A stretch of 64,000 nucleotides of DNA from Candidatus Omnitrophota bacterium (GCA_043806135.1 JAZDHG010000034.1:6283-70282); one strand, 5' to 3'; positions 27,313 through 63,896 are shown, numbered from the stretch's first letter. Program-made: numbers and translations. Notes: generated by a model from the sequence alone, not told the origin.

Positions 27313-28938
27313 ATGTTTAACAAAAAAATAATATATCTGCTGTTCTTCTTGTGTATAATCATCGCTTCGGCTTTAAGATTATTCACACTTTTTCATACCC
27401 ATCATCTGGATTTTGAGTCCGTATTCCGCATTACCGAGTCCTATCAGTATTCTAAAATAAGCCCCTGGTATCATTTTTGGCACCTGGGTATAATCAGCGG
27501 CGGTACAGGCGGACAACGCGGCTACTACCTTCTCAACTCCTTGTTAATGGCCATTATAAACCAGCCTGACATGGTTGCCCGCTTTAGCAGCATGGTTTTT
27601 GCGGTATTATCAATTATTTTCTATTTTCCGCTTTTAAGGCTGCTGTTTACAAGAGAAATCTCCTTAGCCTCGACATTTGCGCTTGCTTTTTACCATGTTC
27701 ACATTCAGTTAAGTGTTGTACCAATGGCTAATGCCGGATTTATTTTTTTCACGATAATATCCCTTTATTGCCTGCTGCGTTTGTGTTTTTTTAATAGTAC
27801 CGCAAACAGCAGATTTCTGCTTTTCTTAACAGCGTTATTTACCCTGCTGGCGACAAGTTTCAGATTAGAAGCATGGTTACTTGTAATCGCATATCCGATA
27901 ATATTGCTTGTTAAGAAGAAACCGTTAGCGGCAGTTATTTTATTTATTCTTTCATCTTTGTATATTGTAAATACTTTGTACTTAATGCAAAAATGCTTCG
28001 GCAATCCATTTATTTTTCTGCAAAACCCTCTTTTACACATACACGGAGCAAAGACCTCAATGGGATTTTTTGCTCATCCGGATAATCTGCCCTCTTACAG
28101 CAGTTTCCAAGGCCTGATCTGGATAGACACGCTCCGCTATTCGCTTTCAACGCCGCTTTTAATACTGGGCGCAATAGGAATGTTCGGTATCAGAAGCCAT
28201 AAGAAACAGGCGGCTTTCTTTTTCGTATTTTTTTGCTTTTTATTCATGCTCACCTTAAGACAAATAATAAGCAACCATTCGCCGTTTATCCGTTATGTCA
28301 GCATCCTTGCTGTATTCTTTATCCCGTTTATTCTTCAGGGCGCCAGGGATTGCGGTTCGCTAATTTTGAACTGCCTGAAACTTAAAATCACCTGGCGCAG
28401 ACCAGTATTGATGAGTGGAATTTTTGCATCTCTAATATTTTTTGTCTTTGTATCTTCTTCTCACCTGGTAAACGATTTTTATGCCATGCAATATCAGGAT
28501 AGTGTTTACATACTTGATAATTGGATGCTGAAAAATTCTAAATCAGGAGATCTGCTTTTCAGTTCTTTTAACGACCTTGATACCCACGCAGCGGCCATAG
28601 CAAATAAATATGTCGTCAGTAAACCTCTTGATGAGAGAATTTTCATGTCCAGCTTGTATAATTTTTTATATAGCCGAGAGAATGCGATTGACCTGAGCAA
28701 ACAAGCGCCTTTTTTACCAAAAAGCATACAGGATAGTTTTTTCCCGATGTTTGATAATAGAAATATTTTTCTAAATCTAATACGCAGTAGAGAGTACAAA
28801 CAGCAAATCAGCAGGATAGTGTTTCTGTTCAAACCAGCTGATTTTAAATACCTAAAAGCACATCTGCCAAAACTTTTGAAGAAAGTATCATTCTCTTACA
28901 ACGGATTTATGTATTGCGGAATATTACCGGCTTATTGA
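27313..28938 (+). CDS. Polytopic membrane protein, putative GT-C-type glycosyltransferase
   Basis: 541 aa with more than 10 TM helices and no soluble catalytic domain. The GT-C-like topology rests on weak evidence. Confidence 0.35.
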   Translation: MFNKKIIYLLFFLCIIIASALRLFTLFHTHHLDFESVFRITESYQYSKISPWYHFWHLGIISGGTGGQRGYYLLNSLLMAIINQPDMVARFSSMVFAVLSIIFYFPLLRLLFTREISLASTFALAFYHVHIQLSVVPMANAGFIFFTIISLYCLLRLCFFNSTANSRFLLFLTALFTLLATSFRLEAWLLVIAYPIILLVKKKPLAAVILFILSSLYIVNTLYLMQKCFGNPFIFLQNPLLHIHGAKTSMGFFAHPDNLPSYSSFQGLIWIDTLRYSLSTPLLILGAIGMFGIRSHKKQAAFFFVFFCFLFMLTLRQIISNHSPFIRYVSILAVFFIPFILQGARDCGSLILNCLKLKITWRRPVLMSGIFASLIFFVFVSSSHLVNDFYAMQYQDSVYILDNWMLKNSKSGDLLFSSFNDLDTHAAAIANKYVVSKPLDERIFMSSLYNFLYSRENAIDLSKQAPFLPKSIQDSFFPMFDNRNIFLNLIRSREYKQQISRIVFLFKPADFKYLKAHLPKLLKKVSFSYNGFMYCGILPAY

Positions 28939-46638: not shown

Positions 46639-48114
46639 TTAATCTTGCTTTAAGCTGTAAATCGGTCTGTAAAGATAATATCTTTCATTGCTATGGCCGA
46701 ATATACCAGTCTCTACTTTGTGTAATAATCGATATTTTGAGGTTTCACTCACTGGTATTTTGTTGTTTAAAAGAATTAATGTCTTATTTTTTGGAAAATT
46801 ATTCTTATTTATTCTTCTTACAATTTCTTCAAAAGGGATAAATATATCTCTTCTGTATTTTTTATTCCAGGTGACAAATGTTCCGTATTGTTCAACATCC
46901 GCATACCAGAATTTAATATTCGGAATATACGGTAACAAAGAACTTGTATACGCTGACTCATGCGCAACGATAATATAATCGGTAAGATCGCTGCTTTTTA
47001 AAAAGTTTGTCATTTCTTTAGCTCCGGAGAACAAGAAATTATACTCTTGATAATGCCGAAGCCCGGCCGGTACAATCGATATTGCTAAACAAATATTCAA
47101 GGCTACGATTATTCCGTTGTATTCAAACAATTTGCTCCAAGCAGTTAATTTAGATTTTTGATTAGCGGTAGATTTTTTATTTTCGCATCCGGTGATCCAT
47201 AATGTAAATAATAATATTATTAGAATAAAACCAAAATGTCTGTAGCCCCAAAGAGACTTAAATATAAACAGATAAAATAAACCCAAATATGAGCAGAGCA
47301 TAATGAAAAATACTCTAAATGAAATTTTATAAATGTAAACACATACGCTGATTAATATTACTATAGCTGCTAGGAAGCTGCTATAAGCAGCAATATTCGG
47401 TGAACAGGGAAAAAATGCATATCCTATCGCAAAGAATAGGTTATAAAAATCAAATGCAGAGCAGAACCCGTAGTTCATATTATCTACAGGAGACAGAAGC
47501 TGAATAAAGGCGATTACAGCGCCGCAACCCATTATAAACAAAGCAGTTATTCGCTGTGAGTTTAATTGTTTATTTTGCCAACTTTCAAATAAAAAAACTG
47601 CGGATAAAGATATGGCGATAAAACAGCTATGCACATTAGTATTGAAAAGCAAAAAAATCAAACCAGCATAGATCATCGGTTTTTTAAACCGGGCCCCATA
47701 CAATGCAGCAATTAAGAATAACATTAAAACACTCAGACTATAGCTTCTTGCTATAATTGAGTACTCCCAAGCCATATAATAAGAACACATAAACAGGGTT
47801 TTTGTTATATTTGAAAATGGTGATTTATACACAAAAATTGCCGCGGCCAAACAGATTATGACTAAATTTATTAAATTCATCGATACATATGGCAAGCCAA
47901 GTTTAGCAAAAGGCAATAAAATCATATGCCAAAGAGCCGGCGTTCCTTCGTAAACCATTTGGCTAAAGATAGAAAAAAAAGGCAGGTCTCTGGCAATTAA
48001 CCAGGCTTGGGCCTCGTCTCTCCAAGGCTCGTGATGAAATACAGTAAAACCCATGGTCAGAGCATAAAGAATAAAAAGCAGAGTTTCCCATGAAATTATT
48101 TTATTTTTCTTCAT
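46639..48114 (-). CDS. Polytopic membrane protein, putative GT-C-type glycosyltransferase (start trimmed)
   Basis: More than 12 TM helices. [18 protein letters not shown] first periplasmic loop with conserved acidic residues. The track ORF starts at 48168, overlapping the upstream gene by 68 nt. MKKNKIISW at 48114 is more plausible. Confidence 0.35.
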
Positions 48115-49675
48115 GATATTCCTCTTCTGTATTGACCTGCCAGATATTATCTTTAGATGTATTGCCATTTACAATATTTTCAACTGCAGTCATTGCTGTA
48201 AGCATTGAATGATCCGCATTATTGTATTTATGCATCCCATTTCTTCCAATCAAAAATAGATTATTTATCTTATCAGTAAAATCCCTAATTACATGAAAAC
48301 TGTCATAACTGCCGAAATATGCCGGATATGTTTTCGGCATTCTGATAACAGTCGAATCCAAAACATCATTTTTATCAATGATATCAATCTGAGTTAATTC
48401 ATTGATAGCAAACTCTGCGAACTCATCATTGGATTTGCTCCATAACTCATCTCCTTCATTACAAAAGTATTCTAACCCGATCCAAACCTTATCAGGATCT
48501 TTTACCATATACGGGCTCCAGTTGTTAAAAATCTGCAGCCGACCAAGTTTTACATCTTTTTCCTGAATATATATCCAGTTATCCGGCACAATATTATTAA
48601 CAGTGGGAATTTTAGTTTCATTTCTTATTTTCATCTTTTCCAAAAGAAGTCCAATAGTTATGAAATCCCGATACATTAATCCTTTTGCAACTTTTTGGAC
48701 CGGATCCGGGACGCTCGGATTCATAGACGCAATAAGCTCTTTAACCGGCATGGTTGAAAACAAAAAATCGCATTTATATTCATTTTTATCATTTGTTACA
48801 TTGCTTTTTACTCCGACCCCAGATACTAAGCCTCCGGATATGTTAACCGCAACAACTTTACTCTCCATGTGAATCTCTCCACCCTTTGCAATTATTTTCC
48901 GGGCGACTTCTTCCCATAACTGGCCCGGTCCTAATTTCGGGTAATAAAACTGCTCAATCAATGATGTTTCCGTTTTCTTTTGAGCAATCGATGTGTCCTT
49001 TTTGAAAAAACCTTTAAACGCGTGAATTATCGCTTTGCTGATAGATAATCCCTTAACGCGCTGCGCGCCCCACTCAGGCTTTATTTTACTGCACTGGACA
49101 CCCCATACTTTTTCCGTATAATCTTCAAAAAACAGCCGGTAAAGCTGTTTGCCGAACCTATTGATGAAAAAATCCTCCAGCGATTTTTCTTTCTTGATAG
49201 GAAATAATTGGGACTTAATATAACTGAATCCAATGCGAATTATCTTTGTCATCCCTAAATTCTTAAATGTATTCCATTTTAAAGATATCGGATAATCAAA
49301 AAAGGAACGCTTAAAGAATATGCGTGAAATGCGTCTTCGAATCAACATAACCAGATCATTTTTTTCAGGATCCGGAGCATTTTCTTTTTTGGAAACAGCA
49401 ACACTTCTATTAAGGATAATATCGTCTCTAGATGGGCTGCCTTGCAATGAAAGTATGTTACTCCACCAATCCATAACCCGGTCTGATTTAGAGAAGAATC
49501 GATGACCGCCGATATCGATGCGATTACCTTTATAGTTAACTGTCTTTGATATCCCGCCGATATCAGAGGATATCTCAAAAATAACCGGTTTAATATCTGT
49601 CTTATGGAGAAGTTCATAAGCCGCAGTCAGTCCAGCCGGGCCAGCACCAACAATTACTGCAATTTTCTGATTCAT
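48101..49675 (-). CDS. FAD/NAD(P)-binding oxidoreductase (amine-oxidase/UDP-galactopyranose-mutase-like)
   Basis: [18 protein letters not shown] dinucleotide-binding motif, IDIGGHRFF. 524 aa. Confidence 0.65.
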
Positions 49676-54220: not shown

Positions 54221-55018
54221 TTAAAAAGACTTTATTTTTCCAAGGAACATATTTTTAAAATAAGTGAGCTGCTGCAGAAAGTAAAGATAGGGGCTGAAAA
54301 CCGATTTATATGAGGGGGCATTTTCTCTCTTATCGCTAATATACAATGCTTTTTTCTTAGTATTGGCTCTAGCGATTTGGATAGAGAATGGGGTCATTAA
54401 AACTATTTTTAAATCAAATAACATTGATCTGTTTTGAATATAAAAGAGGTCGTGTTCTACTCTTTTAATAATTGATGTATTAGCGCGATACCCATTAACC
54501 TGTGCCCATCCGGTAAGCCCTGCTTTAACAGTATGACGCAAATCATAATTCTTAATTGTCTTCTTAAACCGCTCAATAAAATATGGTCTTTCCGGTCTGG
54601 GGCCTACTAAACTCATATCTCCCCGCAGCACATTCACCAACTGGGGAAGCTCGTCAATAAGCAGGATTCTCAATAACCGTCCGAATCTAGTGCTTCTGGG
54701 ATCATCGGTCTTTCCCCACTCAGGGCCTTTGTCGTTTTCCACCTTATCCGGCATTGAACGGAATTTATACAACCAGAATACTCTCCCGCCCTTTGTGCAT
54801 CTTTCTTGCTTATAAATAACCGGGCCCGGAGAGCTTAACTTAACCATTATTGCCACGAACAACATTAAAGGGGAACTTAGTATCAATAACAATAACGATC
54901 CCGCTATATCCATTACCCTTTTTATAAAAGCATAAGAGAAGATTAAAGAACATATCTCCGCAGCTTCGTTCAAATATGATTGTCTATTTGCTAGATTTAA
55001 AGTATGATTAATAAACAT
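54221..55018 (-). CDS. Polyprenyl-phosphate glycosyl-1-phosphate transferase (PglC/WbaP-C-like priming enzyme)
   Basis: Single N-terminal TM, LYKFRSM ... DELPQL ... GDMSLVGPRP signature of bacterial sugar transferases. Confidence 0.8.
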   Translation of the reverse strand: MFINHTLNLANRQSYLNEAAEICSLIFSYAFIKRVMDIAGSLLLLILSSPLMLFVAIMVKLSSPGPVIYKQERCTKGGRVFWLYKFRSMPDKVENDKGPEWGKTDDPRSTRFGRLLRILLIDELPQLVNVLRGDMSLVGPRPERPYFIERFKKTIKNYDLRHTVKAGLTGWAQVNGYRANTSIIKRVEHDLFYIQNRSMLFDLKIVLMTPFSIQIARANTKKKALYISDKRENAPSYKSVFSPYLYFLQQLTYFKNMFLGKIKSF

Positions 55019-55052
55019 TATTTTCTTTCCTTAATTTTGTAATTTAAATTTA

Positions 55053-56717
55053 TTAGGCCATTTCTTTATTAATATCCAACTCCAGATCATAAAACTTAAC
55101 CCCTGCAGCGTATCCAGGGTTACCGTCATTTACTGCGACAGGAGATGTCCAAACTACTACCCCGTTACCCACAATAGGCTTCATTTTATCACGATGTATT
55201 TCAAATTCAAGAATATTTTTCGGCTGTAATTTTTCGGTTGTGACAATCTTCATTCCTGAACGCCCGACATCCTTACTCCAGCATATATGTTTCTTTTTTT
55301 GTCCGACAACTGTACATGTAACTTTATTAGATGTTTTTGAACGCTGTGACGATCTCCTTTCTTCAAATTTCCCAAAATCATGTTCGGATTGCACTTCATG
55401 CACAGAAGAAACAGAAAAAACAAGGGCCATGGCAAACCCAATCGTTAACCCGACAAGTACCCCCAACAAAAGATTAGTCAATAAATTTGGTTTAACCGGA
55501 GAATCCGGAACATCGGCAAGTTCTATTATTTCTGCATCAGGAAGCATATTGGTTCTCTGTTTTAAAATTTTTAACTCTTGGAGCTTTGCCTTAAGATCAG
55601 CATAAACTTCTCTTTTCATTTCAATATCACGATTGAGCCGGGCTAATTTAGGCTGGGTTTGAAGCGCTTTATTTAGCCTATTGGTTTGTTTTTCGTGATT
55701 TTCAATCAATGCTTCTTTTTTTCCAATTAAAGATTTTTTTTCTATCACTAAAGATTCTATCTCTGCCTTTACAATCTTATCGCTTTCCTTAGCCAGATCG
55801 ATTGTTAATTTAGCAATCGCCGCCTGAGCAACCATTACATCCGGATGATTTAAATTAAATTCTCCCATTAAAACATCCATCTTGAGATCAGCTAAACGGA
55901 TTTGTGATTTTAAGTCGTTTATAAGTTCATTATCTGTAAGAAATTTCAGGTTTAAATTTTCAGAATCATTTTTCTCCACCCGCCCTTTAATTTCAACGAT
56001 TTTAGTATTTAACATCTCTATATCAGCGTTAACAGCAGCTACATGCATGTCTAAATCAGCATATTTTTGCAGACTCAAAACTATATCCGACCCAAAGAGC
56101 ATAATCATATTATCTTGACTAGCTATTTCATTCAACTCCTCCTCAACAGCGTTAAAATCCTTTTTTGCCGTTTCGATCTCTTTTTCCAAGGCGGAAATAA
56201 TTCGCTCGACAGTTTCACTTTTTAATTTTACTCTGTTTTCAATATAGGTTTCTGCTATCGCATTTGCTAACATTGAGGCAAACAAAGGGTTCGGCTGCTG
56301 TACCTGAAGCTCTAAAACATTTGTGCCTTCTAATAGAGTAAGACTGATTTTTTTCTGTAACATACTCTTATTTAATGAGTTGGGATCCAAACCTTTAAAT
56401 TCCTCTTTCGAAAAATCTATTTTTTGCAGTGCCTTGTCTATAACAGATCTGCTCTTTATAATTTCAGCTTGTGAATTAGCAAATTGCCATCCGGTCTCAT
56501 AAGAGGGAAACTCATCTTTAGGATTGAGTTTCTCTTCCCTAACCAATATTTTTGTACTTACCTCATATATGGGTTTCACAAATACTTTAGTAGCAAAAAA
56601 AGCAGCCGCCAGTGTTATGATAATTGAGCTAGCAATAATCAGTTTACCTCTTCTAATAACATTCAGGATATCGATTGAATCAATATCATTTTGTATTAAA
56701 TTTGAATTTTTCATCAT
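55053..56717 (-). CDS. Polysaccharide chain-length determinant protein (Wzz/GumC-like, no kinase domain) with a C-terminal PilZ-like domain
   Basis: N-terminal Wzz region plus TM1, a long coiled-coil periplasmic region, and TM2 (LLTNLLLGVLVGLTIGFAMALVF). The roughly 100-aa cytoplasmic tail has RRSSQR (RxxxR) and a degenerate DVGRSG, followed by beta-strand patterning reminiscent of PilZ. Confidence 0.7.
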   Translation of the reverse strand: MMKNSNLIQNDIDSIDILNVIRRGKLIIASSIIITLAAAFFATKVFVKPIYEVSTKILVREEKLNPKDEFPSYETGWQFANSQAEIIKSRSVIDKALQKIDFSKEEFKGLDPNSLNKSMLQKKISLTLLEGTNVLELQVQQPNPLFASMLANAIAETYIENRVKLKSETVERIISALEKEIETAKKDFNAVEEELNEIASQDNMIMLFGSDIVLSLQKYADLDMHVAAVNADIEMLNTKIVEIKGRVEKNDSENLNLKFLTDNELINDLKSQIRLADLKMDVLMGEFNLNHPDVMVAQAAIAKLTIDLAKESDKIVKAEIESLVIEKKSLIGKKEALIENHEKQTNRLNKALQTQPKLARLNRDIEMKREVYADLKAKLQELKILKQRTNMLPDAEIIELADVPDSPVKPNLLTNLLLGVLVGLTIGFAMALVFSVSSVHEVQSEHDFGKFEERRSSQRSKTSNKVTCTVVGQKKKHICWSKDVGRSGMKIVTTEKLQPKNILEFEIHRDKMKPIVGNGVVVWTSPVAVNDGNPGYAAGVKFYDLELDINKEMA

Positions 56718-56740
56718 ATAATCACCCTATCTTTTTATTA

Positions 56741-57541
56741 TTAATCTTCAGCAATTTTATAGATTAAATAAGTATCCGCAATGGGTTTGATGGTTCTTCC
56801 GAAAAAGGAGAACAGGTCATCCATTTTACCTATAAAAGTTTTCGGCACATAAACAATATCTCCCGGCTGAAGAATTACATCATTTCTTACTTTTCCTTCT
56901 TTAAGCACGCTTTTTAAATCCGCCGTGAATATATGCGGAACTTTATCATATGGATTACGTATAATAACCGTGTTTTCTAAGTATGAATATTGGGCATACC
57001 CTCCGGATTTGCCTATAGCTTCCAATGCTGTCAGACGCCCCGAAATATTATACATTCCCGGATTTCTAACCTCTCCAAGCACAAGAATCTTTTTACTTCC
57101 GATTTCATTGACTATTACCGTTACCTGGGGATCAAGAATATATTTGTCCTGGAGCCTTGCTGCAATAACTTTGCTTAATTTTTCCGGGCTCAGTCCGCCG
57201 GCTTTTATTTCACCAGCAAGAGGGAGAGATATTCTCCCGTCAGGGCGTATGGTAATTGTTCTGCTTAGATCTTCATTGCGCCATACAGATACCTCTATTA
57301 CATCACCGGATTCAAGCATATACTCAGGATCAGTACCTTTTTCAAAAATTGATTCCTGCTCTTTTGCTATAGACTCTGCTTTCTCAATACTATAGTTTTG
57401 AGCAATATCCTGTTCGCGGTTAACTATATTTGTTGTCGCTGAATATGCTATAACTGAAAAAACAAGCATGCTGGCAAAAGCTAATAAAACTAATAAATTA
57501 ATTAAAACTGCCTTGATAAAAAGTTTTGATCGTTTTTTCAT
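56741..57541 (-). CDS. wza: Wza-type outer-membrane polysaccharide export protein (OPX; Poly_export + SLBB)
   Basis: Signal peptide. GDVIEVSVW..ISLPLAGEIKAGGLSPEKL (Poly_export motif) and an SLBB-like C-terminus. Confidence 0.75.
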   Translation of the reverse strand: MKKRSKLFIKAVLINLLVLLAFASMLVFSVIAYSATTNIVNREQDIAQNYSIEKAESIAKEQESIFEKGTDPEYMLESGDVIEVSVWRNEDLSRTITIRPDGRISLPLAGEIKAGGLSPEKLSKVIAARLQDKYILDPQVTVIVNEIGSKKILVLGEVRNPGMYNISGRLTALEAIGKSGGYAQYSYLENTVIIRNPYDKVPHIFTADLKSVLKEGKVRNDVILQPGDIVYVPKTFIGKMDDLFSFFGRTIKPIADTYLIYKIAED

Positions 57542-57545
57542 TTTA

Positions 57546-57776
57546 TCACCCTCTGTTTGTTAGCCGTAATAAGACCGGATTGAGATTGCTTTCGTTCCAG
57601 GTAACTTCCCATGAAGACAAGTTCCCGTCTTCGAAATGACCATTTGTGAGCATATTCGCCTGGCAAGTTAATGGAACTTGTATGAGAATAATTACACTCA
57701 CGATAAATATTATTTGCTTAATAGTTTCCCTTTTCACTGCTCTTCTCCCGTTAAATTTCATTTGACTGTGAGCCAC
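57546..57776 (-). CDS. Small secreted hypothetical, possibly a CBM-like fragment
   Basis: 76 aa. Signal-like hydrophobic stretch then NGHFEDGNLSSWEV, reminiscent of the start of carbohydrate-binding modules. Ends 4 nt before wza. Confidence 0.25.
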   Translation of the reverse strand: MAHSQMKFNGRRAVKRETIKQIIFIVSVIILIQVPLTCQANMLTNGHFEDGNLSSWEVTWNESNLNPVLLRLTNRG

Positions 57777-58005: not shown

Positions 58006-60978
58006 TTAAGCTGGCACTGCCTTATAAGCATTTATAAAAACAGACATATCTACAATCAGTTTACCTTTATCATTAGTAAAAATAGAAATAATATCATCAA
58101 AACTCATACCCTGGTTTTTCATCACATCAACCAGCTCAGCATGATCATATCCGGCAGCTACCATGGCTGCAGCAATTGCTCTATTATCAAGACCGTTATT
58201 TGATAAAAGATTGTAAGTATTTTCAGTAGTCTGCCCGCCCTGTTGAAGCCCCTTAGTTATACTGCTCCAAGAAACTGAACTATTAACCGCAGCCAAGACC
58301 ACATCTTCTGCCGAATTACCCCATAAGACTAACAAACTCACAACTTTATCTGTCTTACCCGCACCAGCATCTTCAAAAGCGCTAATAATTCTGGTCATAT
58401 CCCAACCCAGTGATTGCATTCCGATCATTAGGTTATCAACTTCACCATGGGAGCCGTCCAGCATTGCCGTTACTATTTCATCGTCACTTAAATTATTGTT
58501 AGTTAAAATCGTAAGTACTTCAAGCGACTCAAAACCATTTGTTTTTAATCCGCTGGCAATTTCCTTCCAGCTTGCACCAGCCTCTTGCACAGTGGAAACA
58601 ACTGCATCAGTTTCAAACCCGGCTTTAAGAAAGGCATCAACCAGTTCTGCGGCATGACTAGGTTTCCCCTTACTTGTAAACGCATCAATCACCTGGTTCA
58701 TATCACTGCCTTGATTCAACATCGCAGTTGCTATATCACCTGCATTATAACCGCCGGCAAGCATCGAAGTAACGATTTTTGAATTGCTTAATCCATTTGA
58801 TGTTAAAACCGTAAAAGTATCAGCAGCGCTTACACCTCCCTGCTGCAAACCTTGCGTAATCGGGTCCCAGTCAATCTTTGCCTCTATCGCAGCAGTAACC
58901 ACTTCATCAACGGAAACTCCGGCTTTAACCAAAGCAGCCACAACTGCAGCCCCCTGGCGAACCACATTGGATTCAGTTACCGTTTCTGTTTCCGTTTCTC
59001 CATCTGTGCTGGTTGTTGTAACAGACTCTTCTTTAAACGCTTCAAATATGCGGGCGCTATCCCATCCCAGGGTAACCATGCCCTGAACCATTTTGCCGAT
59101 ATTCCCTCCGCCTTTATCCATCATTGCGCTTACAACTTCCTTATCACTAAGGCCGTTATCTTTAAGGTATTGAACTATTTTATCAAAATCAGCATTGCCA
59201 AATTCCATTCCCTTGGCAATATCTTTAACCTTCATCCCTGCTTCTTTTGCAGCCGCAGCTATTTCTTCAAAGGTATATTTGCCTGATTTCATTAAAGCAC
59301 TGACCACCGATTTTCCTACTTTAACATTAACAACAATTTTATTTTTGAATGCCTTAAATATAGAATTCATATCCATTCCCAGATTGATTAGTCCGGCAAC
59401 AATACCGCCGGCATCTCTGCCGCTATCAAGCATCTTTCCTACTACCTCAATGTCGCTTAACCCCTGTTCAGATAGAATAGTATAGACCTCCTCTGAGCTC
59501 ATACCAGTTGATACTAAACCCTTGGTAATATTCTCCCAGGATGTCCCCGCCTTTCTGACTGCCGTAATAACCTCTTCTGCTGAATATCCGGCTTTTATCA
59601 AGCCTGTAACAACTGCTGCATCATCCTTAGCTCCGTCAAAAGAAGCAATAATTGTCTCCATGCTCCAGCCCAACTCGTTCATGGCGATTACCATGCTGCC
59701 AGCGCCGAAATTTGTATTCTTACGCAGAGCATCAACTATTTTCTTTTCCGTTAATCCGTTTGACTGTAAAATTTCAATGATTTCACTTATGGTTGAACCG
59801 GAATTTTTAAGGCCCAAAGATATTTTATCCCAGCTGATTCCGGCCTTACTTGCTGCACTGACAACCTCTTCTATGGTAAATTTTTTCGAGTTGATCAAAG
59901 CCACGCAAAGCAGCTCTCCCTTGGAATTTCCTTCAGTTTTAAAAGCATTAAAAATTTCCTCAGCACTTTTTCCCATAGCGATCATTGCATTTACCAGATC
60001 GTTAGTGTTAGTGCCTCCATCAAGAAGGTATCCTACAACTTTGCTTTCACTGACCCCCTGTTCTTCCATAACAGAGAACACTTCTTCAATACTCAAACCG
60101 CCGGCACTTAGTCCAGCCACTATATTTTTAATGGAAATCCCTGCTCCCTTTGCAGCAGAGATAACATCATCAGTGGAAATTCCTGATTTAACCAATGCTG
60201 CCACCACCTCAGCAGCCTTACGCACAATACCAGTGTCTACATTTTTAAATGACTTAAAAATTTGGTCAGTGCTCATGCCTTGGGCAATCATTCCCTTAAC
60301 AATATCACTTGTAGTATAGTTGCCATCAAGCATCATTGTTACAATCTGCCTATCTTCATAACCGGCATTCTGCAAGATCAAAAGAACTTCCTGAGCCGAT
60401 GCGCCGGACTTTTTAAGCGCAGTGACAATTTCCGTATATGAATATCCCTTTGCAATTAATGATTTTGTCATGTCTTCATAACTTACCCCAGCATTTTCAA
60501 GTGCTGAGTTATCAGCCATAACCTCTTTTTGATTATTAACTAACGCGGCAGGCACTACTTTAGCGGCCTCTTCTTTGGAAAATACCTCAGCAATCAAATT
60601 ATAGGCAACATCCCCATATCCCAGAGAAATAAGCCCCAAAGCAATATCATTGCTGGAAAAACCTGATTTCTTTAGAGTGCTTACAATATTACTTAAATCT
60701 GTTCCTGCACTCACAAATCCGGTTATTAAACCTTTTACATCTTCAACGGTTGAAGCGCTTTGCTGAGTATTACTACTTCCTCCCGTATTTATATACTCTG
60801 TAGTCACTGGTTTTCTGTTAACTTGATCATCGCTAATTTCCTGATTTACATTTGTATCTGATGTTTGCGGGTCAATCTGTTCCGGCAAAATAGCGCCATG
60901 AAGCATCCCGTAAGCTCCAAGCGTAAACAGAAAAACTATCATGAGATTAATAATAGTGAACATTTTCATGATAAGCAC
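58006..60978 (-). CDS. Large secreted tandem-repeat protein (about 9 helical repeats of ~95 aa) in the PilY1 position. Putative pilus-associated factor of unknown family.
   Basis: 990 aa. Signal peptide MKMFTIINLMIVFLFTLGAYG. Repeats follow the pattern ..VVAALVKAG.S.D.V..A...AGISW..I..GL...G.S.EEV...L...GLS...IV..MLDGG....D.V..M...G.....I..AFK. Confidence 0.6.
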   Translation of the reverse strand: MLIMKMFTIINLMIVFLFTLGAYGMLHGAILPEQIDPQTSDTNVNQEISDDQVNRKPVTTEYINTGGSSNTQQSASTVEDVKGLITGFVSAGTDLSNIVSTLKKSGFSSNDIALGLISLGYGDVAYNLIAEVFSKEEAAKVVPAALVNNQKEVMADNSALENAGVSYEDMTKSLIAKGYSYTEIVTALKKSGASAQEVLLILQNAGYEDRQIVTMMLDGNYTTSDIVKGMIAQGMSTDQIFKSFKNVDTGIVRKAAEVVAALVKSGISTDDVISAAKGAGISIKNIVAGLSAGGLSIEEVFSVMEEQGVSESKVVGYLLDGGTNTNDLVNAMIAMGKSAEEIFNAFKTEGNSKGELLCVALINSKKFTIEEVVSAASKAGISWDKISLGLKNSGSTISEIIEILQSNGLTEKKIVDALRKNTNFGAGSMVIAMNELGWSMETIIASFDGAKDDAAVVTGLIKAGYSAEEVITAVRKAGTSWENITKGLVSTGMSSEEVYTILSEQGLSDIEVVGKMLDSGRDAGGIVAGLINLGMDMNSIFKAFKNKIVVNVKVGKSVVSALMKSGKYTFEEIAAAAKEAGMKVKDIAKGMEFGNADFDKIVQYLKDNGLSDKEVVSAMMDKGGGNIGKMVQGMVTLGWDSARIFEAFKEESVTTTSTDGETETETVTESNVVRQGAAVVAALVKAGVSVDEVVTAAIEAKIDWDPITQGLQQGGVSAADTFTVLTSNGLSNSKIVTSMLAGGYNAGDIATAMLNQGSDMNQVIDAFTSKGKPSHAAELVDAFLKAGFETDAVVSTVQEAGASWKEIASGLKTNGFESLEVLTILTNNNLSDDEIVTAMLDGSHGEVDNLMIGMQSLGWDMTRIISAFEDAGAGKTDKVVSLLVLWGNSAEDVVLAAVNSSVSWSSITKGLQQGGQTTENTYNLLSNNGLDNRAIAAAMVAAGYDHAELVDVMKNQGMSFDDIISIFTNDKGKLIVDMSVFINAYKAVPA

Positions 60979-61445
60979 CCATCCTTATTGAAACACTTTA
61001 TGAACATCATGTTGTTTATATCCAATAATTAAATTTTTTAAATATAAAAATATAAGCCGAATTGCCATTAATATCTTCGGCAACCCGGCTGTCATAGCAA
61101 TCGCTTTAGACCCGCAGTTTTACCCCGGCTTCGTTTTTTATTCTCCGCCGGGTCCGGCAAGCTTACCTTGAGATATTAACCCCATAAGCGTAACCGGAGC
61201 CCCTGCCTTTCGGAAGGTTTGTCTTTTCGGACACTATTTTACAAATATAGTTATTAATCTCTTTATAAAAGTATATCATGAAATACAATAACTTGCAACC
61301 AGAAAACTTATCTTCTTGCATTTAAATCTGTTGTAGATATAAAGAAGCAGCTGTAAAATCCGCAAAAGAAATATAATCCAGATATGATAAGGTTTCTAAA
61401 ATAAGAAGCAGTTTAAAAAAACAGCAGGTTATAATGTTTTAGTTT

Positions 61446-62720
61446 TTAAGGAGTGGTATACCCTCGCCAGGAAGTTACAAAATAACCTAAGATTAAAGCT
61501 TCAGGATCTTCTCTTGACGCAATATCATAATGATATTTCAAGCCTGTAGTACATTCTACTGTTTTACCGACAACACTGCCATAAAAAACAGTGTCCGGGC
61601 CAATTCGAACATCAGCATTAGGCGCGTAAATATTCCCATAAAATCCACTGGCATGCGAACTAAGATTAAATGAAGCTACATTGTCAGTACAATAAATCTT
61701 AAACCTTAGAGGATCATAGGTAGTATTGTCAATTTTTGCCCCATTTCCAAAAGTAGTATTTCCATTTAGCCATAATTTGGCAGTATTTCCAGGATTTATT
61801 AAAATCTTGCTGTTAACACCAAGCTTCAGTTCCCCGATCACATAAATATCAACATTAGCATTAATTTCAAGTATAGCATCCTTTTCAAGCTTAATAGAAT
61901 CATATTCTACCTCATTATCGTTTATTGTAAACGTCGTACCGTTTGACACAGTAAGCGCCCCCCGGTTAGGTGCATATACTCCGGTCTGATCAGGTATTGA
62001 CAGCAGGGGTTTATCCTTATTTAACCATTTCACGGCTCCGTTATATACGCCGGAGCCTGTCAGTAAAATCACATCCGCAGGGTCTCCTCCTAAGCCAATA
62101 GTAATATCTCCAGTAACAATACTGTTGTTGCCGATTTTAATTGTTTTAGCAGCTATTGAATTAGTAACAAAGTCTGCATCTGTGCCTATATTTCCCGCTA
62201 CACCATAAAATCCAATCCGGGAATCATAGCTGTCAACTAAAGCATTGCTTCCGATATTAATGCCGCTATAACCCATGATCGCGTCTTTAAAAAGCTTCTC
62301 CTCAACAGCAATAACCTTAACTGTTTTCGAAGCCATCTGGTTGGCCTGGTTTGGAAAGTAACCTATTGATTCAACTTCATAAGATTTAGGCTCAGTGACT
62401 AAATTAATCACAGTTACAATGAATTCACCAATTGTATCTCCGCCAGGGATACCAATATTTCCTGTTCTTGTCCATTTTACGCCTGTTACTGTTGTCCAGC
62501 CCTCTGTTGCAAGGAATTCCCTTCCGCCATGATTTACTTCCAAGAGCCCAAGTTCCGCGCCGGCTTCAGCAATATGCATTGCTTCAACTTCCGCGTAGGT
62601 TCTTATGGAAATTTGCGCATTTGAATGCACTGATGCCACATAACTTGTACCCAAAATAACCAGGCCCAGAATCAGAATAAGCGATAATAATAAAGCGCTA
62701 CCTTTTTTATTAAATAACAT
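61446..62720 (-). CDS. PilX-like type IV pilus minor component (PilX_N domain plus beta-helix-like C-terminus)
   Basis: N-terminus KKGSALLLSLILILGLVILGTSYVASV .. AEAGAELGL matches PilX_N. The C-terminal G/N/T-rich repeats suggest a parallel beta-helix. Confidence 0.6.
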   Translation of the reverse strand: MLFNKKGSALLLSLILILGLVILGTSYVASVHSNAQISIRTYAEVEAMHIAEAGAELGLLEVNHGGREFLATEGWTTVTGVKWTRTGNIGIPGGDTIGEFIVTVINLVTEPKSYEVESIGYFPNQANQMASKTVKVIAVEEKLFKDAIMGYSGINIGSNALVDSYDSRIGFYGVAGNIGTDADFVTNSIAAKTIKIGNNSIVTGDITIGLGGDPADVILLTGSGVYNGAVKWLNKDKPLLSIPDQTGVYAPNRGALTVSNGTTFTINDNEVEYDSIKLEKDAILEINANVDIYVIGELKLGVNSKILINPGNTAKLWLNGNTTFGNGAKIDNTTYDPLRFKIYCTDNVASFNLSSHASGFYGNIYAPNADVRIGPDTVFYGSVVGKTVECTTGLKYHYDIASREDPEALILGYFVTSWRGYTTP

Positions 62721-62732
62721 GCTGCCTTTCCC

Positions 62733-63386
62733 TTAAAAATTCCGCATCAGAATACTCGTAACTGCATTTGACTGCAGAACACGGCTTCCTAAAACAGTTT
62801 TTGCGGTTGTTAATCTTATTGTTATATTTCTTACCGCTGCTAAAATTCCCACACTGCCAAGTCCTGTACCTCCTGAGCTGAAATTTAAGGCGCTAACATT
62901 ACGCGCAATAATATAAATTCCTCCCGGCCTGGCGCTTGAAGCATCCGGGGCCACGACTCTTTCTAATATTGCCGGGTCATCGTCATTTAAATGATAAACC
63001 ACATAATCAACACTTCCGGTTAAATTCATGAGGTTATTAATAGAAGGGATTCTTAAAACAAGCACATTATCACCGGTTGTGTACGTCTTGCCGCTGATTG
63101 ATCGAGAATTTTCAATAACAATCGCCCATTCAATATCTTTTCTGGCCCAATCCAGGCTTTGTCGTGTTTGCCCATGCAAATCCAGTAATACCGTGCCTGT
63201 TATAAAACTTCGCTGACAGCCAATATATGCGCCAATAATAACCGTGGATATTCCCACAAATATTGCTGTTGAGACGAGCACTTCAACTAAGGTAAACCCC
63301 GTTAGAAAATTACGCTTTTTTGCTTTCTTAAAAAATTCCTTTTTTGAAACCCAATCTATTATGTTTTGCATAAACATTGTTTTCAT
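62733..63386 (-). CDS. Type IV pilus minor pilin (PilW/FimT-like, prepilin-type N-terminal methylation domain)
   Basis: GFTLVEVLVSTAIFVGISTVIIGAY class III signal/N-methylation motif. Confidence 0.6.
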   Translation of the reverse strand: MKTMFMQNIIDWVSKKEFFKKAKKRNFLTGFTLVEVLVSTAIFVGISTVIIGAYIGCQRSFITGTVLLDLHGQTRQSLDWARKDIEWAIVIENSRSISGKTYTTGDNVLVLRIPSINNLMNLTGSVDYVVYHLNDDDPAILERVVAPDASSARPGGIYIIARNVSALNFSSGGTGLGSVGILAAVRNITIRLTTAKTVLGSRVLQSNAVTSILMRNF

Positions 63387-63476
63387 GCAAATTGCCCTTT
63401 CTTAACTTTTATCTCCACTTCTTTTCTGTGTTTTTTCTAACGGGGTAAACCCTTTTTGTCTTTTCATGATTTTTTT

Positions 63477-63896
63477 TTAAGAGCTGATCCCTTCATCCGT
63501 TATATAAGTAACCAAGCTTCTGGTCAGAGACTGCCCTGCAGGAGAATCCCAGGTAATTGTAACCGTAACCCGAACGATTCTGCTAATCGGGAAAACAGGT
63601 TCAGGAGGAGAATCAACAAGTATCTGCCCTTGCGGATTGCTAAGCTGGGTAAATCCTGCAGATATGAACGTTGATGATGGAGTAGTAATAATTGTACTGA
63701 ATTGAGTTTGACGGATTAATTCCATCTGCTCTTCAAGCATATTAATAACCAGATTATTGGCTTGCACCTCGGCAATAAACATCGTACCTTTGGAAAAAAG
63801 CATGAATATTCCCATTAATGATGCACTCAAAATAATCATTGTCATAAGTATTTCTACTAAAGTGAATCCTTTGTTTTTTCTTACTTTAAAACTCAT
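63477..63896 (-). CDS. Type IV pilus minor pilin PilV-like
   Basis: MSFKVRKNKGFTLVEILMTMIILSASLMGIF prepilin motif. 139 aa. Confidence 0.7.
   Translation of the reverse strand: MSFKVRKNKGFTLVEILMTMIILSASLMGIFMLFSKGTMFIAEVQANNLVINMLEEQMELIRQTQFSTIITTPSSTFISAGFTQLSNPQGQILVDSPPEPVFPISRIVRVTVTITWDSPAGQSLTRSLVTYITDEGISS

What the first reader, a model, noticed from the sequence alone, without database searches (positions are those of the whole stretch)
58006..60978. Internal architecture of the 990-aa protein: about nine diverged tandem repeats, each built from three ~30-aa helix-turn modules
Each repeat follows (A)VVAALVKAG(I/V)S.DEV..A...AG(I/A)SW..I..GL...G.S.EEV...L...GLSD..IV..MLDGG....D.V.AM...G.....I..AFK. 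Sub-modules recur with G-x-S and GLS turn motifs. The repeats are diverged at the DNA level, so they are old and maintained rather than a recent slippage product. I do not recognise the family. A solenoid binding surface for polysaccharide or protein is plausible.
Basis: seen in the sequence. Interest (0 to 1): 0.55.

Follow-up and report, generated by a model that had tools for sequence, protein, structure and literature searches.

The report
Riboswitch-controlled secreted helical repeat protein
The 990-aa gene encodes a secreted, all-helical protein built from 14-residue helix-turn units grouped into eight and a half 98-residue domains of an uncatalogued type, and it and its Omnitrophota relatives sit behind c-di-GMP riboswitches, which points to a signal-induced envelope or surface scaffold next to pilin-like and polysaccharide-export genes.

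Summary
The repeat is real. Eight full ~97-aa copies plus a diverged five-helix N-terminal copy fill residues 77-969. Leave-one-out profile scores are 74-112 bits against 11 or less for shuffles.

The unit is one 10-residue helix plus a 4-residue turn (14 aa, G-h-S-x-x-E-h-h-x-x-h), with seven units per copy. AlphaFold2 models one copy as a compact seven-helix domain (pLDDT 96.7, pTM 0.87). It has no significant match in PDB or BFVD, and no Pfam or NCBIfam family describes it.

The copies are old. Paralogous copies are ~30% identical and orthologous copies 58-74%; all 32 copies pair with their same-numbered counterpart.

The protein has a Sec signal peptide. In its orthologs it lies between a minor-pilin trio and a Wzx/Wzy-type polysaccharide cluster.

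New here: a c-di-GMP-I riboswitch (RF01051) with a terminator that overlaps the aptamer sits in the gene's leader. Riboswitches also head relatives' genes or operons in eight further loci (seven independent).

My best reading is a c-di-GMP-induced extracytoplasmic scaffold or adhesive rod that works with the polysaccharide/pseudopilin apparatus. The binding partner is unknown.

The parts
58006..60969 (-). Coding sequence of the repeat protein (987 aa from the ATG at 60969; the mechanical ORF starts at a GTG at 60978; stop codon 58006-58008)
   Evidence: ORF list. ATG preceded by AAGGA at 60982-60986. N-terminus aligns with P0003 and P0004.
60892..60969 (-). Sec-type signal peptide (residues 4-29, MKMFTIINLMIVFLFTLGAYGMLHGA, cleavage inferred after HGA)
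   Evidence: Read from the sequence. Homologs have the same layout, ending in AA|P. AF2 shows a helix at residues 6-18 with low pLDDT. No signal-peptide predictor was available, so this is an inference.
60751..60891 (-). Polar, acidic, predicted disordered linker (residues 30-76) with a conserved SEDQ...P.TTEY motif
   Evidence: pLDDT below 50 for residues 1-76. Invariant columns Q38, D41, S49, D51, Q52, P57, T59, T60 and E61.
60529..60750 (-). N-terminal five-helix module (residues 77-150): a diverged partial repeat, shared with many other secreted Omnitrophota-type proteins
   Evidence: Helices 78-90, 95-104, 109-118, 122-132 and 135-146. Partial match to the repeat HMM. The N-module HMM hits residues ~50-170 of P0013/27/28/54/55/62/88/127/131/146/148 and of three small ORFs in L009 and L010.
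60241..60528 (-). Super-repeat R0 (residues 151-246), seven 14-aa helix-turn units
59935..60222 (-). Super-repeat R1 (residues 253-348)
59632..59925 (-). Super-repeat R2 (residues 352-449)
59338..59628 (-). Super-repeat R3 (residues 451-547)
59029..59322 (-). Super-repeat R4 (residues 553-650)
58960..59028 (-). Thr/Glu-rich linker (residues 651-673), modelled as a beta-hairpin with low confidence. P0001 and P0003 have a second such linker after R0.
   Evidence: Strands 653-657 and 665-669 with pLDDT 44-50. Homolog sequences.
58672..58959 (-). Super-repeat R5 (residues 674-769). This is the copy modelled alone: seven 10-residue helices, pLDDT 96.7, pTM 0.87.
58369..58659 (-). Super-repeat R6 (residues 774-870)
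58072..58359 (-). Super-repeat R7 (residues 874-969)
58009..58071 (-). Conserved C-terminal tail (residues 970-990, ...KLIVDMSVFINAYKAVPA). A similar ...A(T/V)P(A/V/I) end occurs in P0001/3/4/9, P0013, P0028 and the 443-aa ORF of L010.
   Evidence: Invariant columns I975-P989. Sequences.
61076..61233 (-). c-di-GMP-I riboswitch aptamer in the 5' leader. The Rfam match is 61076-61145. The conserved 5' arm with a GAAA-loop hairpin lies at ~61195-61233, separated by a ~75-nt insertion that folds into two hairpins.
   Evidence: RF01051 at 41.7 bits against a gathering score of 35. A second weak match at 61148-61233. Alignment with the L001 and L002 leaders. Fold.
61040..61090 (-). Terminator-type hairpin (12-bp stem, 61055-61090) plus U-rich tail (61040-61054). 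Its 5' arm overlaps the aptamer's P2 3' strand, which predicts an ON switch.
   Evidence: Folds. The same arrangement, with compensatory changes, occurs in L001, L002, L006, L009 and L010. The simple terminator scan did not list it.
61270..61298 (-). Promoter-like site (TTGCAA, 17 nt, TATACT with an upstream TG) just upstream of the conserved leader
   Evidence: This is a consensus match only, and the number of such sites in the region is not above the shuffle expectation.
61446..63896 (-). Upstream minor-pilin-type trio: two prepilin-type (N_methyl) proteins (63477-63896 and 62733-63386) and a 424-aa PilX-like protein with a DUF7305 body (61446-62720)
   Evidence: Pfam and NCBIfam. The same trio precedes the gene in L002, L003 and L004.
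54221..57541 (-). Downstream polysaccharide export and priming genes: short Wza-like OPX (56741-57541), Wzz/GNVR-PilZ fusion (55053-56717) and Bac_transf priming transferase (54221-55018). They head a co-directional Wzx/Wzy-type cluster of more than 25 kb.
   Evidence: The same genes follow the ortholog in L001 and L012.

Best explanation
The gene encodes a Sec-exported, acidic, ~100-kDa all-alpha modular rod. It consists of a signal peptide, a disordered linker, a five-helix N-terminal 'address' module, eight seven-helix domains (each 7 x 14 aa) and a short conserved C-terminal tail.

A c-di-GMP-I riboswitch in the leader gates transcription. Without ligand, a terminator hairpin forms. With c-di-GMP bound, the aptamer holds the terminator's 5' arm and transcription reads into the gene, and possibly on into the polysaccharide export genes behind it.

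The protein is therefore made when c-di-GMP is high, together with the polysaccharide; the Wzz/GNVR protein of that pathway carries its own PilZ c-di-GMP receptor. I infer that the protein acts outside the cytoplasm as a structural scaffold or adhesive rod of the polysaccharide/pseudopilin surface apparatus, docking through its N-module and/or C-tail.

Shown:
- the repeat anatomy
- the predicted fold
- export, inferred from the sequence
- conserved synteny
- the conserved riboswitch with its terminator

Inferred:
- the ON logic
- the cellular location (periplasm or surface)
- the scaffold or adhesive role and the partner
For: Repeat anatomy and age.

Fold: regular 10-residue helices and 4-residue turns. 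The full model has pLDDT 79, and 85-92 in the repeats. A single domain has pLDDT 96.7 and pTM 0.87.

Export: the N-terminal hydrophobic segment with an AxA-like end is conserved in the homologs. The mature protein has pI 4.5 and one Cys.

The same 14-aa unit fills the stretch between the membrane anchor and the TrbI domain of VirB10/TrbI-type proteins. It also occurs in proteins I read as carrying SLH-, lipase-type and esterase-type domains, that is, in envelope or secreted proteins.

Synteny: pilin trio, then the repeat gene, then Wza-like and Wzz-PilZ genes, in the window, L001, L002-4 and L012.

Riboswitch: RF01051 scores above the gathering threshold in the window's leader. It also occurs on the gene's strand upstream of the orthologs (L002/L004 84.7 bits, L001 42.2), the short paralog P0009 (38.7) and P0008 (35.4), and at the head of the operons that end in P0013 (72.4), P0054 (38.4) and P0127 (77.3). 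All nine hits in about 204 kb head family genes.

Terminator: a hairpin overlapping the aptamer's P2 3' strand is conserved, with compensatory changes, in 6 of the 7 leaders folded.

Precedents: class-I c-di-GMP ON riboswitches control large repeat-containing surface adhesins such as CbpA (PMC7423583). Omnitrophota giant secreted proteins have pseudopilin/T2SS-like genes upstream and pilZ genes downstream (bioRxiv 10.1101/2023.11.21.568195).
Against: - No ligand, partner or location has been demonstrated.
- The pilin/EPS linkage rests on only three or four closely related lineages (60-70% identity). The short paralog P0009 and the distant relatives P0008, P0013 and P0054 are not next to pilin or EPS genes.
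- The window's aptamer scores only 41.7 bits and carries a ~75-nt insertion. Its ligand (c-di-GMP or 3'3'-cGAMP) and its function are untested.
- The simple terminator scan did not flag the hairpin.
- The global arrangement of the domains is uncertain (pTM 0.45).
- I could not inspect coordinates, so surface conservation and overall shape are not assessed.
Confidence: 0.45

Rival explanations
1. It is the non-pilin partner of the upstream minor-pilin set, playing a PilY1-like role. The rod would be carried at the tip of a pseudopilus or type IV filament, docked to the PilX-like DUF7305 protein through its conserved C-terminal tail or its N-module, and would act as an adhesin.
For: The gene lies directly downstream of a pilV/W-like, pilV/W-like, pilX-like trio, which is the position of pilY1 in classical operons (my own knowledge). 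This order is conserved in two lineages. The protein is large and Sec-exported and has an invariant short C-terminal tail. PilX proteins with a beta-solenoid insert are linked to EPS-related filaments in cyanobacteria (bioRxiv 10.64898/2026.02.12.705559).
Against: There is no PilY1/PilC beta-propeller or vWA domain. The gene has its own promoter-like site and riboswitch, separate from the pilin genes. Family members with the same N-module and tail occur without pilin neighbours. No pilus assembly ATPase, platform or secretin gene lies adjacent.
Confidence: 0.17
2. It is a periplasm-spanning spacer or ruler of the polysaccharide export machine. It would bridge the inner-membrane Wzz/GNVR-PilZ protein and the short Wza-like OPX, which I infer lacks an outer-membrane helix.
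For: The OPX is only 266 aa (Poly_export plus SLBB). The number of repeats is fixed at eight and a half in all orthologs, and each copy is conserved. The same 14-aa arrays occupy the periplasm-spanning part of TrbI/VirB10-type proteins.
Against: P0009 has the same ends but only two copies, so length is not fixed across the family. Relatives occur without EPS genes. In the P0004 lineage a beta-propeller gene lies between the repeat gene and the Wza-like gene. No known Wzx/Wzy system requires such a component (my own knowledge).
Confidence: 0.13
3. It is one of a c-di-GMP-controlled set of secreted proteins for attachment to, or attack on, host or prey cells, as proposed for Omnitrophota giant proteins. 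On this reading its position next to pilin and EPS genes is lineage-specific and not mechanistic.
For: The shared N-module also occurs in C39-peptidase giants of up to 6321 aa. Those lie in riboswitch/PilZ operons (riboswitch found in L010 and L014, none in L013) that have no EPS genes. West-Roberts et al. report pilZ genes downstream of Omnitrophota giant genes and propose a role in prey cell-wall binding.
Against: The synteny with pilin and EPS genes is conserved across all visible ortholog flanks. The protein has no catalytic or known binding domain.
Confidence: 0.2
4. It is a cytosolic array of UBA-like or RecX-like three-helix domains, as the Pfam names would suggest.
For: Whole-protein scores for UBA_9 (49.6 bits) and UBA_3 (48.5 bits) exceed the Pfam cut-offs. 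There are weak RecX hits. Foldseek gives partial matches to PEX14-N and RecX.
Against: The scores are sums of many partial matches: 2 and 0 stretches are significant on their own, and they cover about half a domain. The period is 14 aa, not ~40. A signal peptide is present. The RecX E-values are ~0.1, and the Foldseek E-values are above 0.4 with TM of about 0.4.
Confidence: 0.02

Closest known systems
Alpha-solenoid / helical repeat proteins (TPR, HEAT, ARM, ankyrin, PPR; de novo designed helical repeats such as DHR4, PDB 5cwb)
   Same: Tandem helix-turn-helix stacking that forms elongated all-alpha arrays. The G-x-S/T-x-x-E helix-capping turns resemble those of designed repeats. The best Foldseek hits are designed repeats, TPR/HEAT-type solenoids and ankyrin-like viral proteins.
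   Different: The unit is a single 10-residue helix plus a 4-residue turn (14 aa), against 33-47 aa for the known classes. Seven units form a discrete 98-aa domain that is itself repeated. No Pfam repeat family matches. TM-scores are 0.2 or less for the full length and 0.5 or less for one domain, and no single-domain hit reaches E <= 1e-3.
UBA / PEX14-N / RecX three-helix modules
   Same: Short helices joined by G-h-S-type turns. There are local sequence matches to UBA_9, UBA_3 and RecX profiles, and local superposition of ~52 residues at 2.8 A rmsd.
   Different: No complete domain is matched. Seven helices per copy is not a multiple of three. The protein is exported and bacterial, and no ubiquitin or RecA context exists.
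CbpA/Cap of the Bacillus cereus group (class-I c-di-GMP ON riboswitch Bc2 upstream of a large repeat-containing surface adhesin; PMC7423583)
   Same: A class-I c-di-GMP aptamer in the 5' leader of a large, internally repetitive, exported protein. The riboswitch is predicted to turn expression on when c-di-GMP is high.
   Different: CbpA is a beta-rich MSCRAMM with an LPXTG anchor in a Gram-positive bacterium. This protein is all-alpha, has no known anchor and comes from a PVC-group/Omnitrophota-type bacterium. The switch here is untested.
PilY1/PilC-type pilus-associated proteins
   Same: A large Sec-exported non-pilin protein encoded directly after a minor-pilin set that ends with a PilX-like gene.
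   Different: There is no C-terminal beta-propeller and no vWA domain. The gene has a separate riboswitch-controlled leader.
Omnitrophota giant secreted proteins (West-Roberts et al., bioRxiv 10.1101/2023.11.21.568195)
   Same: The same phylum-level setting. Pseudopilin/T2SS-like genes lie upstream and PilZ genes downstream. The N-module of this protein also occurs in C39-peptidase proteins of 1940 and 6321 aa.
   Different: This protein has 990 aa, no transmembrane region and no enzyme domain. The paper does not describe the 14-aa helical repeat or the riboswitches.
Periplasm-spanning repeat regions of VirB10/TrbI/DotG-type proteins
   Same: Distant hits P0005, P0021 and P0034 carry long runs of the same 14-aa unit between an N-terminal membrane anchor and a C-terminal TrbI domain.
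   Different: Those arrays are uniform 14-mers without the seven-unit super-repeat. This protein has no TrbI domain and no membrane anchor.

Membership tests
UBA-like domains (Pfam PF22567 UBA_9, PF09288 UBA_3) | Whole-protein score at or above the Pfam gathering cut-off | tested here: met
   49.6 bits against 27, and 48.5 against 20.4. The score is a sum over many weak partial matches of a repetitive protein.
UBA-like domains (Pfam PF22567 UBA_9, PF09288 UBA_3) | At least one complete ~40-55-aa three-helix domain matched end to end | tested here: not met
   The best stretches cover profile positions 13-36 of 43 and 11-29 of 55. Only 2 and 0 stretches pass on their own. The period is 14 aa.
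Classical alpha-solenoid repeat families (TPR, HEAT, ARM, ANK, PPR, Sel1) | Repeat unit of 33-47 aa with two or three helices, recognised by the family's profile | tested here: not met
   The unit is 14 aa with one helix. No such Pfam family appears at E <= 1e-3.
Classical alpha-solenoid repeat families (TPR, HEAT, ARM, ANK, PPR, Sel1) | Global fold similarity to solved members | tested here: inconclusive
RecX-like tandem three-helix repeats | Significant match to the RecX profiles or the RecX structure | tested here: not met
   NCBIfam E-values are 0.11-0.12. Foldseek against 3dfg gives E 1.1 and TM 0.42.
PilY1/PilC pilus-associated proteins | Gene directly downstream of a minor-pilin set | tested here: met
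   N_methyl, N_methyl and PilX-like/DUF7305 genes lie immediately upstream in the window and in L002-4.
PilY1/PilC pilus-associated proteins | C-terminal PilC/PilY1 beta-propeller domain | tested here: not met
   No such Pfam hit. The model is all-alpha.
PilY1/PilC pilus-associated proteins | Physical docking on the minor-pilin complex | not testable with these tools
   This would need complex prediction or experiments.
Genes controlled by a c-di-GMP-I riboswitch (Rfam RF01051) | Aptamer at or above the gathering score in the 5' leader, on the gene's strand | tested here: met
   41.7 bits against 35 at 61076-61145 (-), about 107 nt upstream of the ATG.
Genes controlled by a c-di-GMP-I riboswitch (Rfam RF01051) | Aptamer conserved upstream of orthologs | tested here: met
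   L002/L004 84.7 bits and L001 42.2 bits. It is also present upstream of the paralogs in L006, L008, L009, L010 and L014.
Genes controlled by a c-di-GMP-I riboswitch (Rfam RF01051) | Expression platform coupled to the aptamer | tested here: met
   A 12-bp hairpin plus U-tract shares 7-12 nt with the P2 3' strand. It is conserved with compensatory changes in 6 of the 7 leaders folded. This is a prediction only.
Genes controlled by a c-di-GMP-I riboswitch (Rfam RF01051) | Ligand binding and ligand-dependent regulation | not testable with these tools
   This needs in-line probing, ITC and termination or reporter assays. Selectivity for c-di-GMP over cGAMP has not been determined.
Wzx/Wzy-dependent polysaccharide export proteins (OPX, PCP) | Poly_export/SLBB or Wzz/GNVR domains in the protein itself | tested here: not met
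   None in the repeat protein. These domains are in the two genes downstream.
14-aa helix-turn array proteins (uncatalogued grouping defined here by the A2 profile) | Runs of G-h-S-x-x-E-h-h-x-x-h units with a period of 14-15 aa in exported or envelope proteins | tested here: met
   Lag-14 z of 13.4. The profile finds 560 representatives at E <= 1e-3, and most of the 150 retrieved have a dominant period of 14 or 29.

The most novel reading that the evidence does not exclude
Omnitrophota and related bacteria may possess an unrecognised c-di-GMP-riboswitch regulon of secreted proteins. Its members would share an N-terminal five-helix address module and be built from a new short-helix fold (14-aa units forming seven-helix domains). 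They range from 190-aa module-only proteins through this 990-aa rod to C39-peptidase giants of more than 6000 aa. Together they would form the signal-induced surface apparatus by which these ultra-small cells attach to partners or hosts, working with pseudopilins and polysaccharide.
Probability: 0.3. Interest if true: 0.75.

Novelty: new variant of a known kind. Interest (0 to 1): 0.6.

Why it matters
Three points make this worth following up.

1. It defines a helical repeat type that the domain databases do not describe. The type occurs in hundreds of protein clusters, many of them very large envelope proteins, so a profile for it would annotate long 'blank' stretches of such proteins.

2. 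It gives uncultured Omnitrophota-type bacteria a concrete and testable regulatory link. A class-I c-di-GMP riboswitch with a simple terminator platform sits in front of a family of secreted proteins. This complements the earlier observation of pilZ genes next to their giant genes.

3. It places an unknown scaffold protein at the junction of minor-pilin genes and a polysaccharide export cluster. How pseudopilins and polysaccharide secretion cooperate at such junctions is an open question in other phyla (the cyanobacterial Hps/PilX_EPS system).

Tried and rejected
- A word-indexed profile search with the super-repeat alignment returned nothing, not even the known orthologs, so I disregard it.
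- Two metagenome scans added only the already known P0004 locus and one fragment. The genome scan found two loci.
- The sequence search of the PDB gave only non-significant matches to designed proteins.
- The consensus promoter/terminator scan was not above shuffle expectation and missed the leader hairpin.
- A literature search for a described 14-residue helix-turn repeat, and for c-di-GMP riboswitches in Omnitrophota, found nothing relevant.
- I considered a lipoprotein or prepilin-type signal and rejected both: there is no conserved lipobox Cys and no G-F-T-L-I-E-type motif in the sequences.
- I considered the UBA and RecX assignments and rejected them (see the membership tests).
- I considered that the conserved Trp residues might mark a sugar-binding face. 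They sit at a position in phase with the hydrophobic helix positions, and I could not inspect coordinates, so I make no claim.
- NCBIfam does not assign the DUF7305 neighbour to HpsA. The Hps analogy is therefore functional only.


Full report
**1. The observation**

The 990-codon ORF at 58006-60978 on the minus strand is real. The GTG at 60978 lies inside a ribosome-binding region (AAGGAUGGG). The ATG at 60969 follows AAGGA by 12 nt and aligns with the N-termini of the homologs, so the protein most likely starts at MKMFTIINL....

A substitution-matrix autocorrelation of the protein peaks at lag 14 (z 13.4), with harmonics at 28 and 42 and a separate peak at 100 (z 7.5). Eight segments of 96-98 residues align almost without gaps: 151-246, 253-348, 352-449, 451-547, 553-650, 674-769, 774-870 and 874-969. 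Their pairwise identity is 23-42%. In a leave-one-out test each copy scores 74-112 bits against a profile of the other seven. About 200 shuffles of the same copy never exceed 11 bits.

A ninth, partial copy lies in the N-terminal region, with an HMM match at residues 82-118. At the DNA level the copies are only 41-55% identical when aligned by codon, and Tandem Repeats Finder sees no long-period array.

**2. The correction: the unit is 14 aa**

A copy is not three ~30-aa modules. It is seven 14-residue units. The consensus of the units is G-h-S-x-x-E-[IV]-[IV]-x-[AG]-[LM]-x-x-x. Each unit also has its own signature, for example G-i-S-W..I..GL in unit 3, GLSD.EIV..MLDGG in unit 5 and G.DM..I..AFK in unit 7.

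AlphaFold2 on the four-ortholog alignment gives a regular pattern of 10-residue helices and 4-residue turns. Mean pLDDT is 79, and 85-92 within the repeats, but pTM is only 0.45, so the relative placement of the domains is uncertain.

One copy, modelled with a 32-row alignment of all copies from four orthologs, folds as a compact seven-helix domain with pLDDT 96.7 and pTM 0.87.

**3. Age and maintenance of the copies**

All four full-length orthologs (60-71% identical) have the same layout of eight full copies plus one partial copy. Same-numbered copies of different species are 58-74% identical. Different copies are ~30% identical (range 19-43%). For 32 of 32 copies the nearest neighbour is the same-numbered copy of another species. 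The array therefore predates the divergence of these lineages, and every copy is individually under constraint.

P0009 (366 aa) has the same N-terminus and C-terminal tail but only two full copies. Copy number can therefore differ within the wider family.

**4. Other parts of the protein**

- Residues 4-29 form a Sec-type signal peptide. This is an inference from the sequence and its conservation.
- Residues 30-76 are polar, acidic and predicted disordered, but contain invariant residues (SEDQ...P.TTEY).
- Residues 77-150 form a five-helix N-terminal module.
- A Thr/Glu-rich linker at 651-673 is modelled as a low-confidence beta-hairpin.
- The last 20 residues (...KLIVDMSVFINAYKAVPA) are nearly invariant.
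- The mature protein is about 101 kDa, has pI 4.5 and contains one Cys.

**5. Is the family known?**

Pfam gives only summed partial matches to UBA-like, RepB_primase_C, DUF7626 and similar small helical families. None covers a complete domain. NCBIfam gives nothing below E 0.01. A sequence search of all PDB chains finds only non-significant matches to de novo designed helical proteins.

Public sources call the relatives 'hypothetical protein', mostly from Candidatus Omnitrophota. The two genome hits are MAGs labelled Candidatus Omnitrophota and 'Planctomycetia'.

**6. How widespread is the repeat?**

The word-indexed search found only four close relatives and one distant protein among 5.8 billion. 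The exhaustive profile search with the super-repeat alignment found 560 cluster representatives at E <= 1e-3 and 145 at E <= 1e-10. Most of the 150 retrieved proteins have a dominant period of 14 or 29 residues. Their super-periods vary: ~99-101, 113-117, or 58/87/116.

Co-occurring domains include TrbI and Peptidase_C39 by Pfam. By my reading of the sequences they also include SLH, a lipase-type domain and an esterase-type domain. In the TrbI proteins the 14-mers fill the stretch between the membrane anchor and the TrbI domain. These are envelope or secreted proteins.

The 1700-aa Omnitrophota proteins P0007, P0008, P0010 and P0023 appear, by inspection of their sequences, to have a seven-helix super-repeat with a longer linker and a period of 109-115 aa.

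**7. Genomic setting**

Upstream on the same strand lie two prepilin-type proteins and a 424-aa PilX-like protein with a DUF7305 body. A 2026 preprint describes cyanobacterial PilX minor pilins with a beta-solenoid insert, one subfamily of which (HpsA-like, 'PilX_EPS') is tied to polysaccharide secretion. This is an analogy; NCBIfam does not assign the protein to HpsA.

Downstream lie a short Wza-like OPX, a Wzz/GNVR protein fused to PilZ, and a Bac_transf priming transferase. Behind them is a co-directional cluster of more than 25 kb that encodes a flippase, Wzy, several glycosyltransferases, at least six B12-binding radical-SAM enzymes and several methyltransferases.

The pilin trio precedes the ortholog in L002, L003 and L004. 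The export genes follow it in L001. In the P0004 lineage they follow after an extra 703-aa secreted beta-propeller/FN3 gene. In the window only a 5' stub of that gene remains, at 57543-57737.

P0009 lies after tRNA genes and before metabolic genes. P0008, P0013 and P0054 lie next to PilZ genes but not next to pilin or EPS genes.

**8. The riboswitch**

The AT-rich spacer upstream of the gene contains a GC-rich structured segment. An Rfam scan of the whole window returns a single hit: a c-di-GMP-I aptamer (RF01051) at 61076-61145 on the minus strand. It scores 41.7 bits against a gathering score of 35 and lies about 107 nt upstream of the ATG.

The same family is found on the gene's strand in the following places:

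| Locus | Gene or operon headed | Score (bits) |
|---|---|---|
| L002 / L004 | P0004 ortholog | 84.7 |
| L001 | P0001 ortholog | 42.2 |
| L006 | short paralog P0009 | 38.7 |
| L008 | P0008 | 35.4 |
| L009 | operon ending in P0013 | 72.4 |
| L010 | operon ending in P0054 | 38.4 |
| L014 | operon ending in P0127 | 77.3 |

No hit was found in L013. All nine hits in about 204 kb head genes of this family. L002 and L004 are the same lineage, so these amount to eight independent loci counting the window.

Aligning three ortholog leaders shows that the 5' arm and the whole 3' half of the aptamer are conserved. The window and L001 carry a 75-90-nt insertion in or next to the first hairpin, which explains their lower scores. 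The insertion folds into two hairpins of its own.

Directly after the aptamer, a 12-bp hairpin followed by a U-rich tract uses the aptamer's P2 3' strand as its 5' arm. The same arrangement, with compensatory changes, recurs in L001, L002, L006, L009 and L010. Aptamer and terminator are therefore mutually exclusive, which predicts that ligand binding prevents termination: an ON switch. This is a prediction. Binding, ligand selectivity and function are untested.

**9. The wider operons**

In L009, L010, L013 and L014 the order is: a ~160-aa protein, a PilZ protein, one or two small secreted proteins, further helical proteins, then a large protein that in three of the loci carries a C39 peptidase domain and reaches 6321 aa.

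The small proteins of 247, 225 and 189 aa consist of a signal peptide, a linker and a copy of the N-terminal module of the window protein. A profile of that module matches residues ~50-170 of many of the retrieved proteins. The module therefore behaves as a shared N-terminal element of a family of secreted proteins.

Several members also share a C-terminal ...A(T/V)P(A/V/I) end.

West-Roberts et al. reported that Omnitrophota giant genes are preceded by T2SS-like loci with pseudopilin-type genes and followed by pilZ genes. They do not mention this repeat or the riboswitches. A full-text search for c-di-GMP riboswitches in Omnitrophota found no paper.

**10. What it most likely does**

The shown facts are:
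- an exported, acidic, modular all-alpha protein
- position-specific conservation of every copy
- conserved placement between minor-pilin and polysaccharide-export genes
- a conserved c-di-GMP aptamer with a coupled terminator

From established knowledge, c-di-GMP generally promotes attachment and matrix production. Class-I ON riboswitches are known upstream of large surface adhesins such as CbpA (PMC7423583; PMC6366702).

I therefore read the protein as a c-di-GMP-induced extracytoplasmic scaffold or adhesive rod that acts with the polysaccharide/pseudopilin apparatus (confidence 0.45). The alternatives are:
- a PilY1-like partner of the minor pilins (0.17)
- a periplasm-spanning spacer of the export machine (0.13)
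- a member of a host- or prey-directed secretome whose EPS/pilin neighbourhood is incidental (0.20)
- a cytosolic UBA/RecX-like reading, which I reject (0.02)

**11. Novelty and score**

Helical repeat proteins and riboswitch-controlled surface proteins are known kinds. What is new is:
- the 14-aa single-helix unit organised into a seven-helix domain without a database or structural match
- the shared N-terminal module
- the conserved riboswitch link in Omnitrophota-type bacteria

I rate it a new variant of a known kind, with interest 0.6.

The main limits are:
- the few orthologous lineages
- no access to model coordinates
- the absence of any experimental evidence

Noticed in passing
window 61040-61233 (-): A c-di-GMP-I riboswitch aptamer (RF01051, 41.7 bits) with a ~75-nt insertion, followed by a terminator-type hairpin that overlaps the aptamer, lies in the leader of the repeat gene. 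It is the only Rfam hit in the 64-kb window.
   Followed up: yes
window 57543-57737 (-); L007 3555-5369; L002 13208-14449; L012 444-2555; L001 3804-3998: The window keeps a 64-codon stub that is 68-70% identical to the N-terminus of a ~700-aa secreted CBM-like/beta-propeller/FN3 protein. That protein lies between the repeat gene and the Wza-like gene in the P0003 and P0004 lineages. The gene has been deleted in the window, and L001 keeps a different remnant.
   Followed up: partly
window ~30400-57541 (-): A very large co-directional Wzx/Wzy-type polysaccharide cluster. It contains at least six B12-binding radical-SAM enzymes and several SAM methyltransferases, which suggests a heavily modified (methylated) polymer.
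   Followed up: partly
window 55053-56717 (-): A polysaccharide co-polymerase (Wzz plus GNVR) fused to a C-terminal PilZ domain, with no kinase domain hit. It would be a direct c-di-GMP input into export, two genes downstream of the riboswitch-controlled gene.
   Followed up: partly
window 61446-62720 (-): A 424-aa PilX-like protein with a hydrophobic N-terminal helix and a DUF7305 body with beta-solenoid-like sequence. It resembles the cyanobacterial PilX_EPS/HpsA-type minor pilins described in a 2026 preprint. NCBIfam gives no HpsA assignment.
   Followed up: partly
window 6853-8181 (-): An N-terminal PilZ domain fused to a T2SSE-type secretion ATPase. This is another c-di-GMP receptor linked to a type II/IV-like machine.
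   Followed up: no
L009 6346-7999; L010 3743-7245; L013 1281-5979; L014 2401-5973: Conserved operons (riboswitch found in L009, L010 and L014, none in L013). The order is a ~160-aa protein, PilZ, small secreted proteins that in L009 and L010 consist of little more than the N-terminal module of the window protein, further helical proteins, and a large protein that carries a C39 peptidase domain in L010, L013 and L014 (up to 6321 aa).
   Followed up: partly
P0005, P0021, P0034 (distant hits): VirB10/TrbI-type proteins in which long runs of the same 14-aa helix-turn unit fill the region between the membrane anchor and the TrbI domain.
   Followed up: partly
L002/L003 4108-5511: Two ComFB-domain genes, one of them fused to CheR, lie a few kb upstream of the pilin trio in the P0004 lineage. 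ComFB was recently described as a c-di-NMP receptor family.
   Followed up: no
window 27313-28938 (+) and 46639-48168 (-): Two ORFs of 541 and 509 aa have no Pfam family at the thresholds used. The second lies inside the polysaccharide cluster.
   Followed up: no
window 15106-18138 (+): A 1010-aa protein with a weak YhdP-like match that falls below the Pfam cut-off.
   Followed up: no
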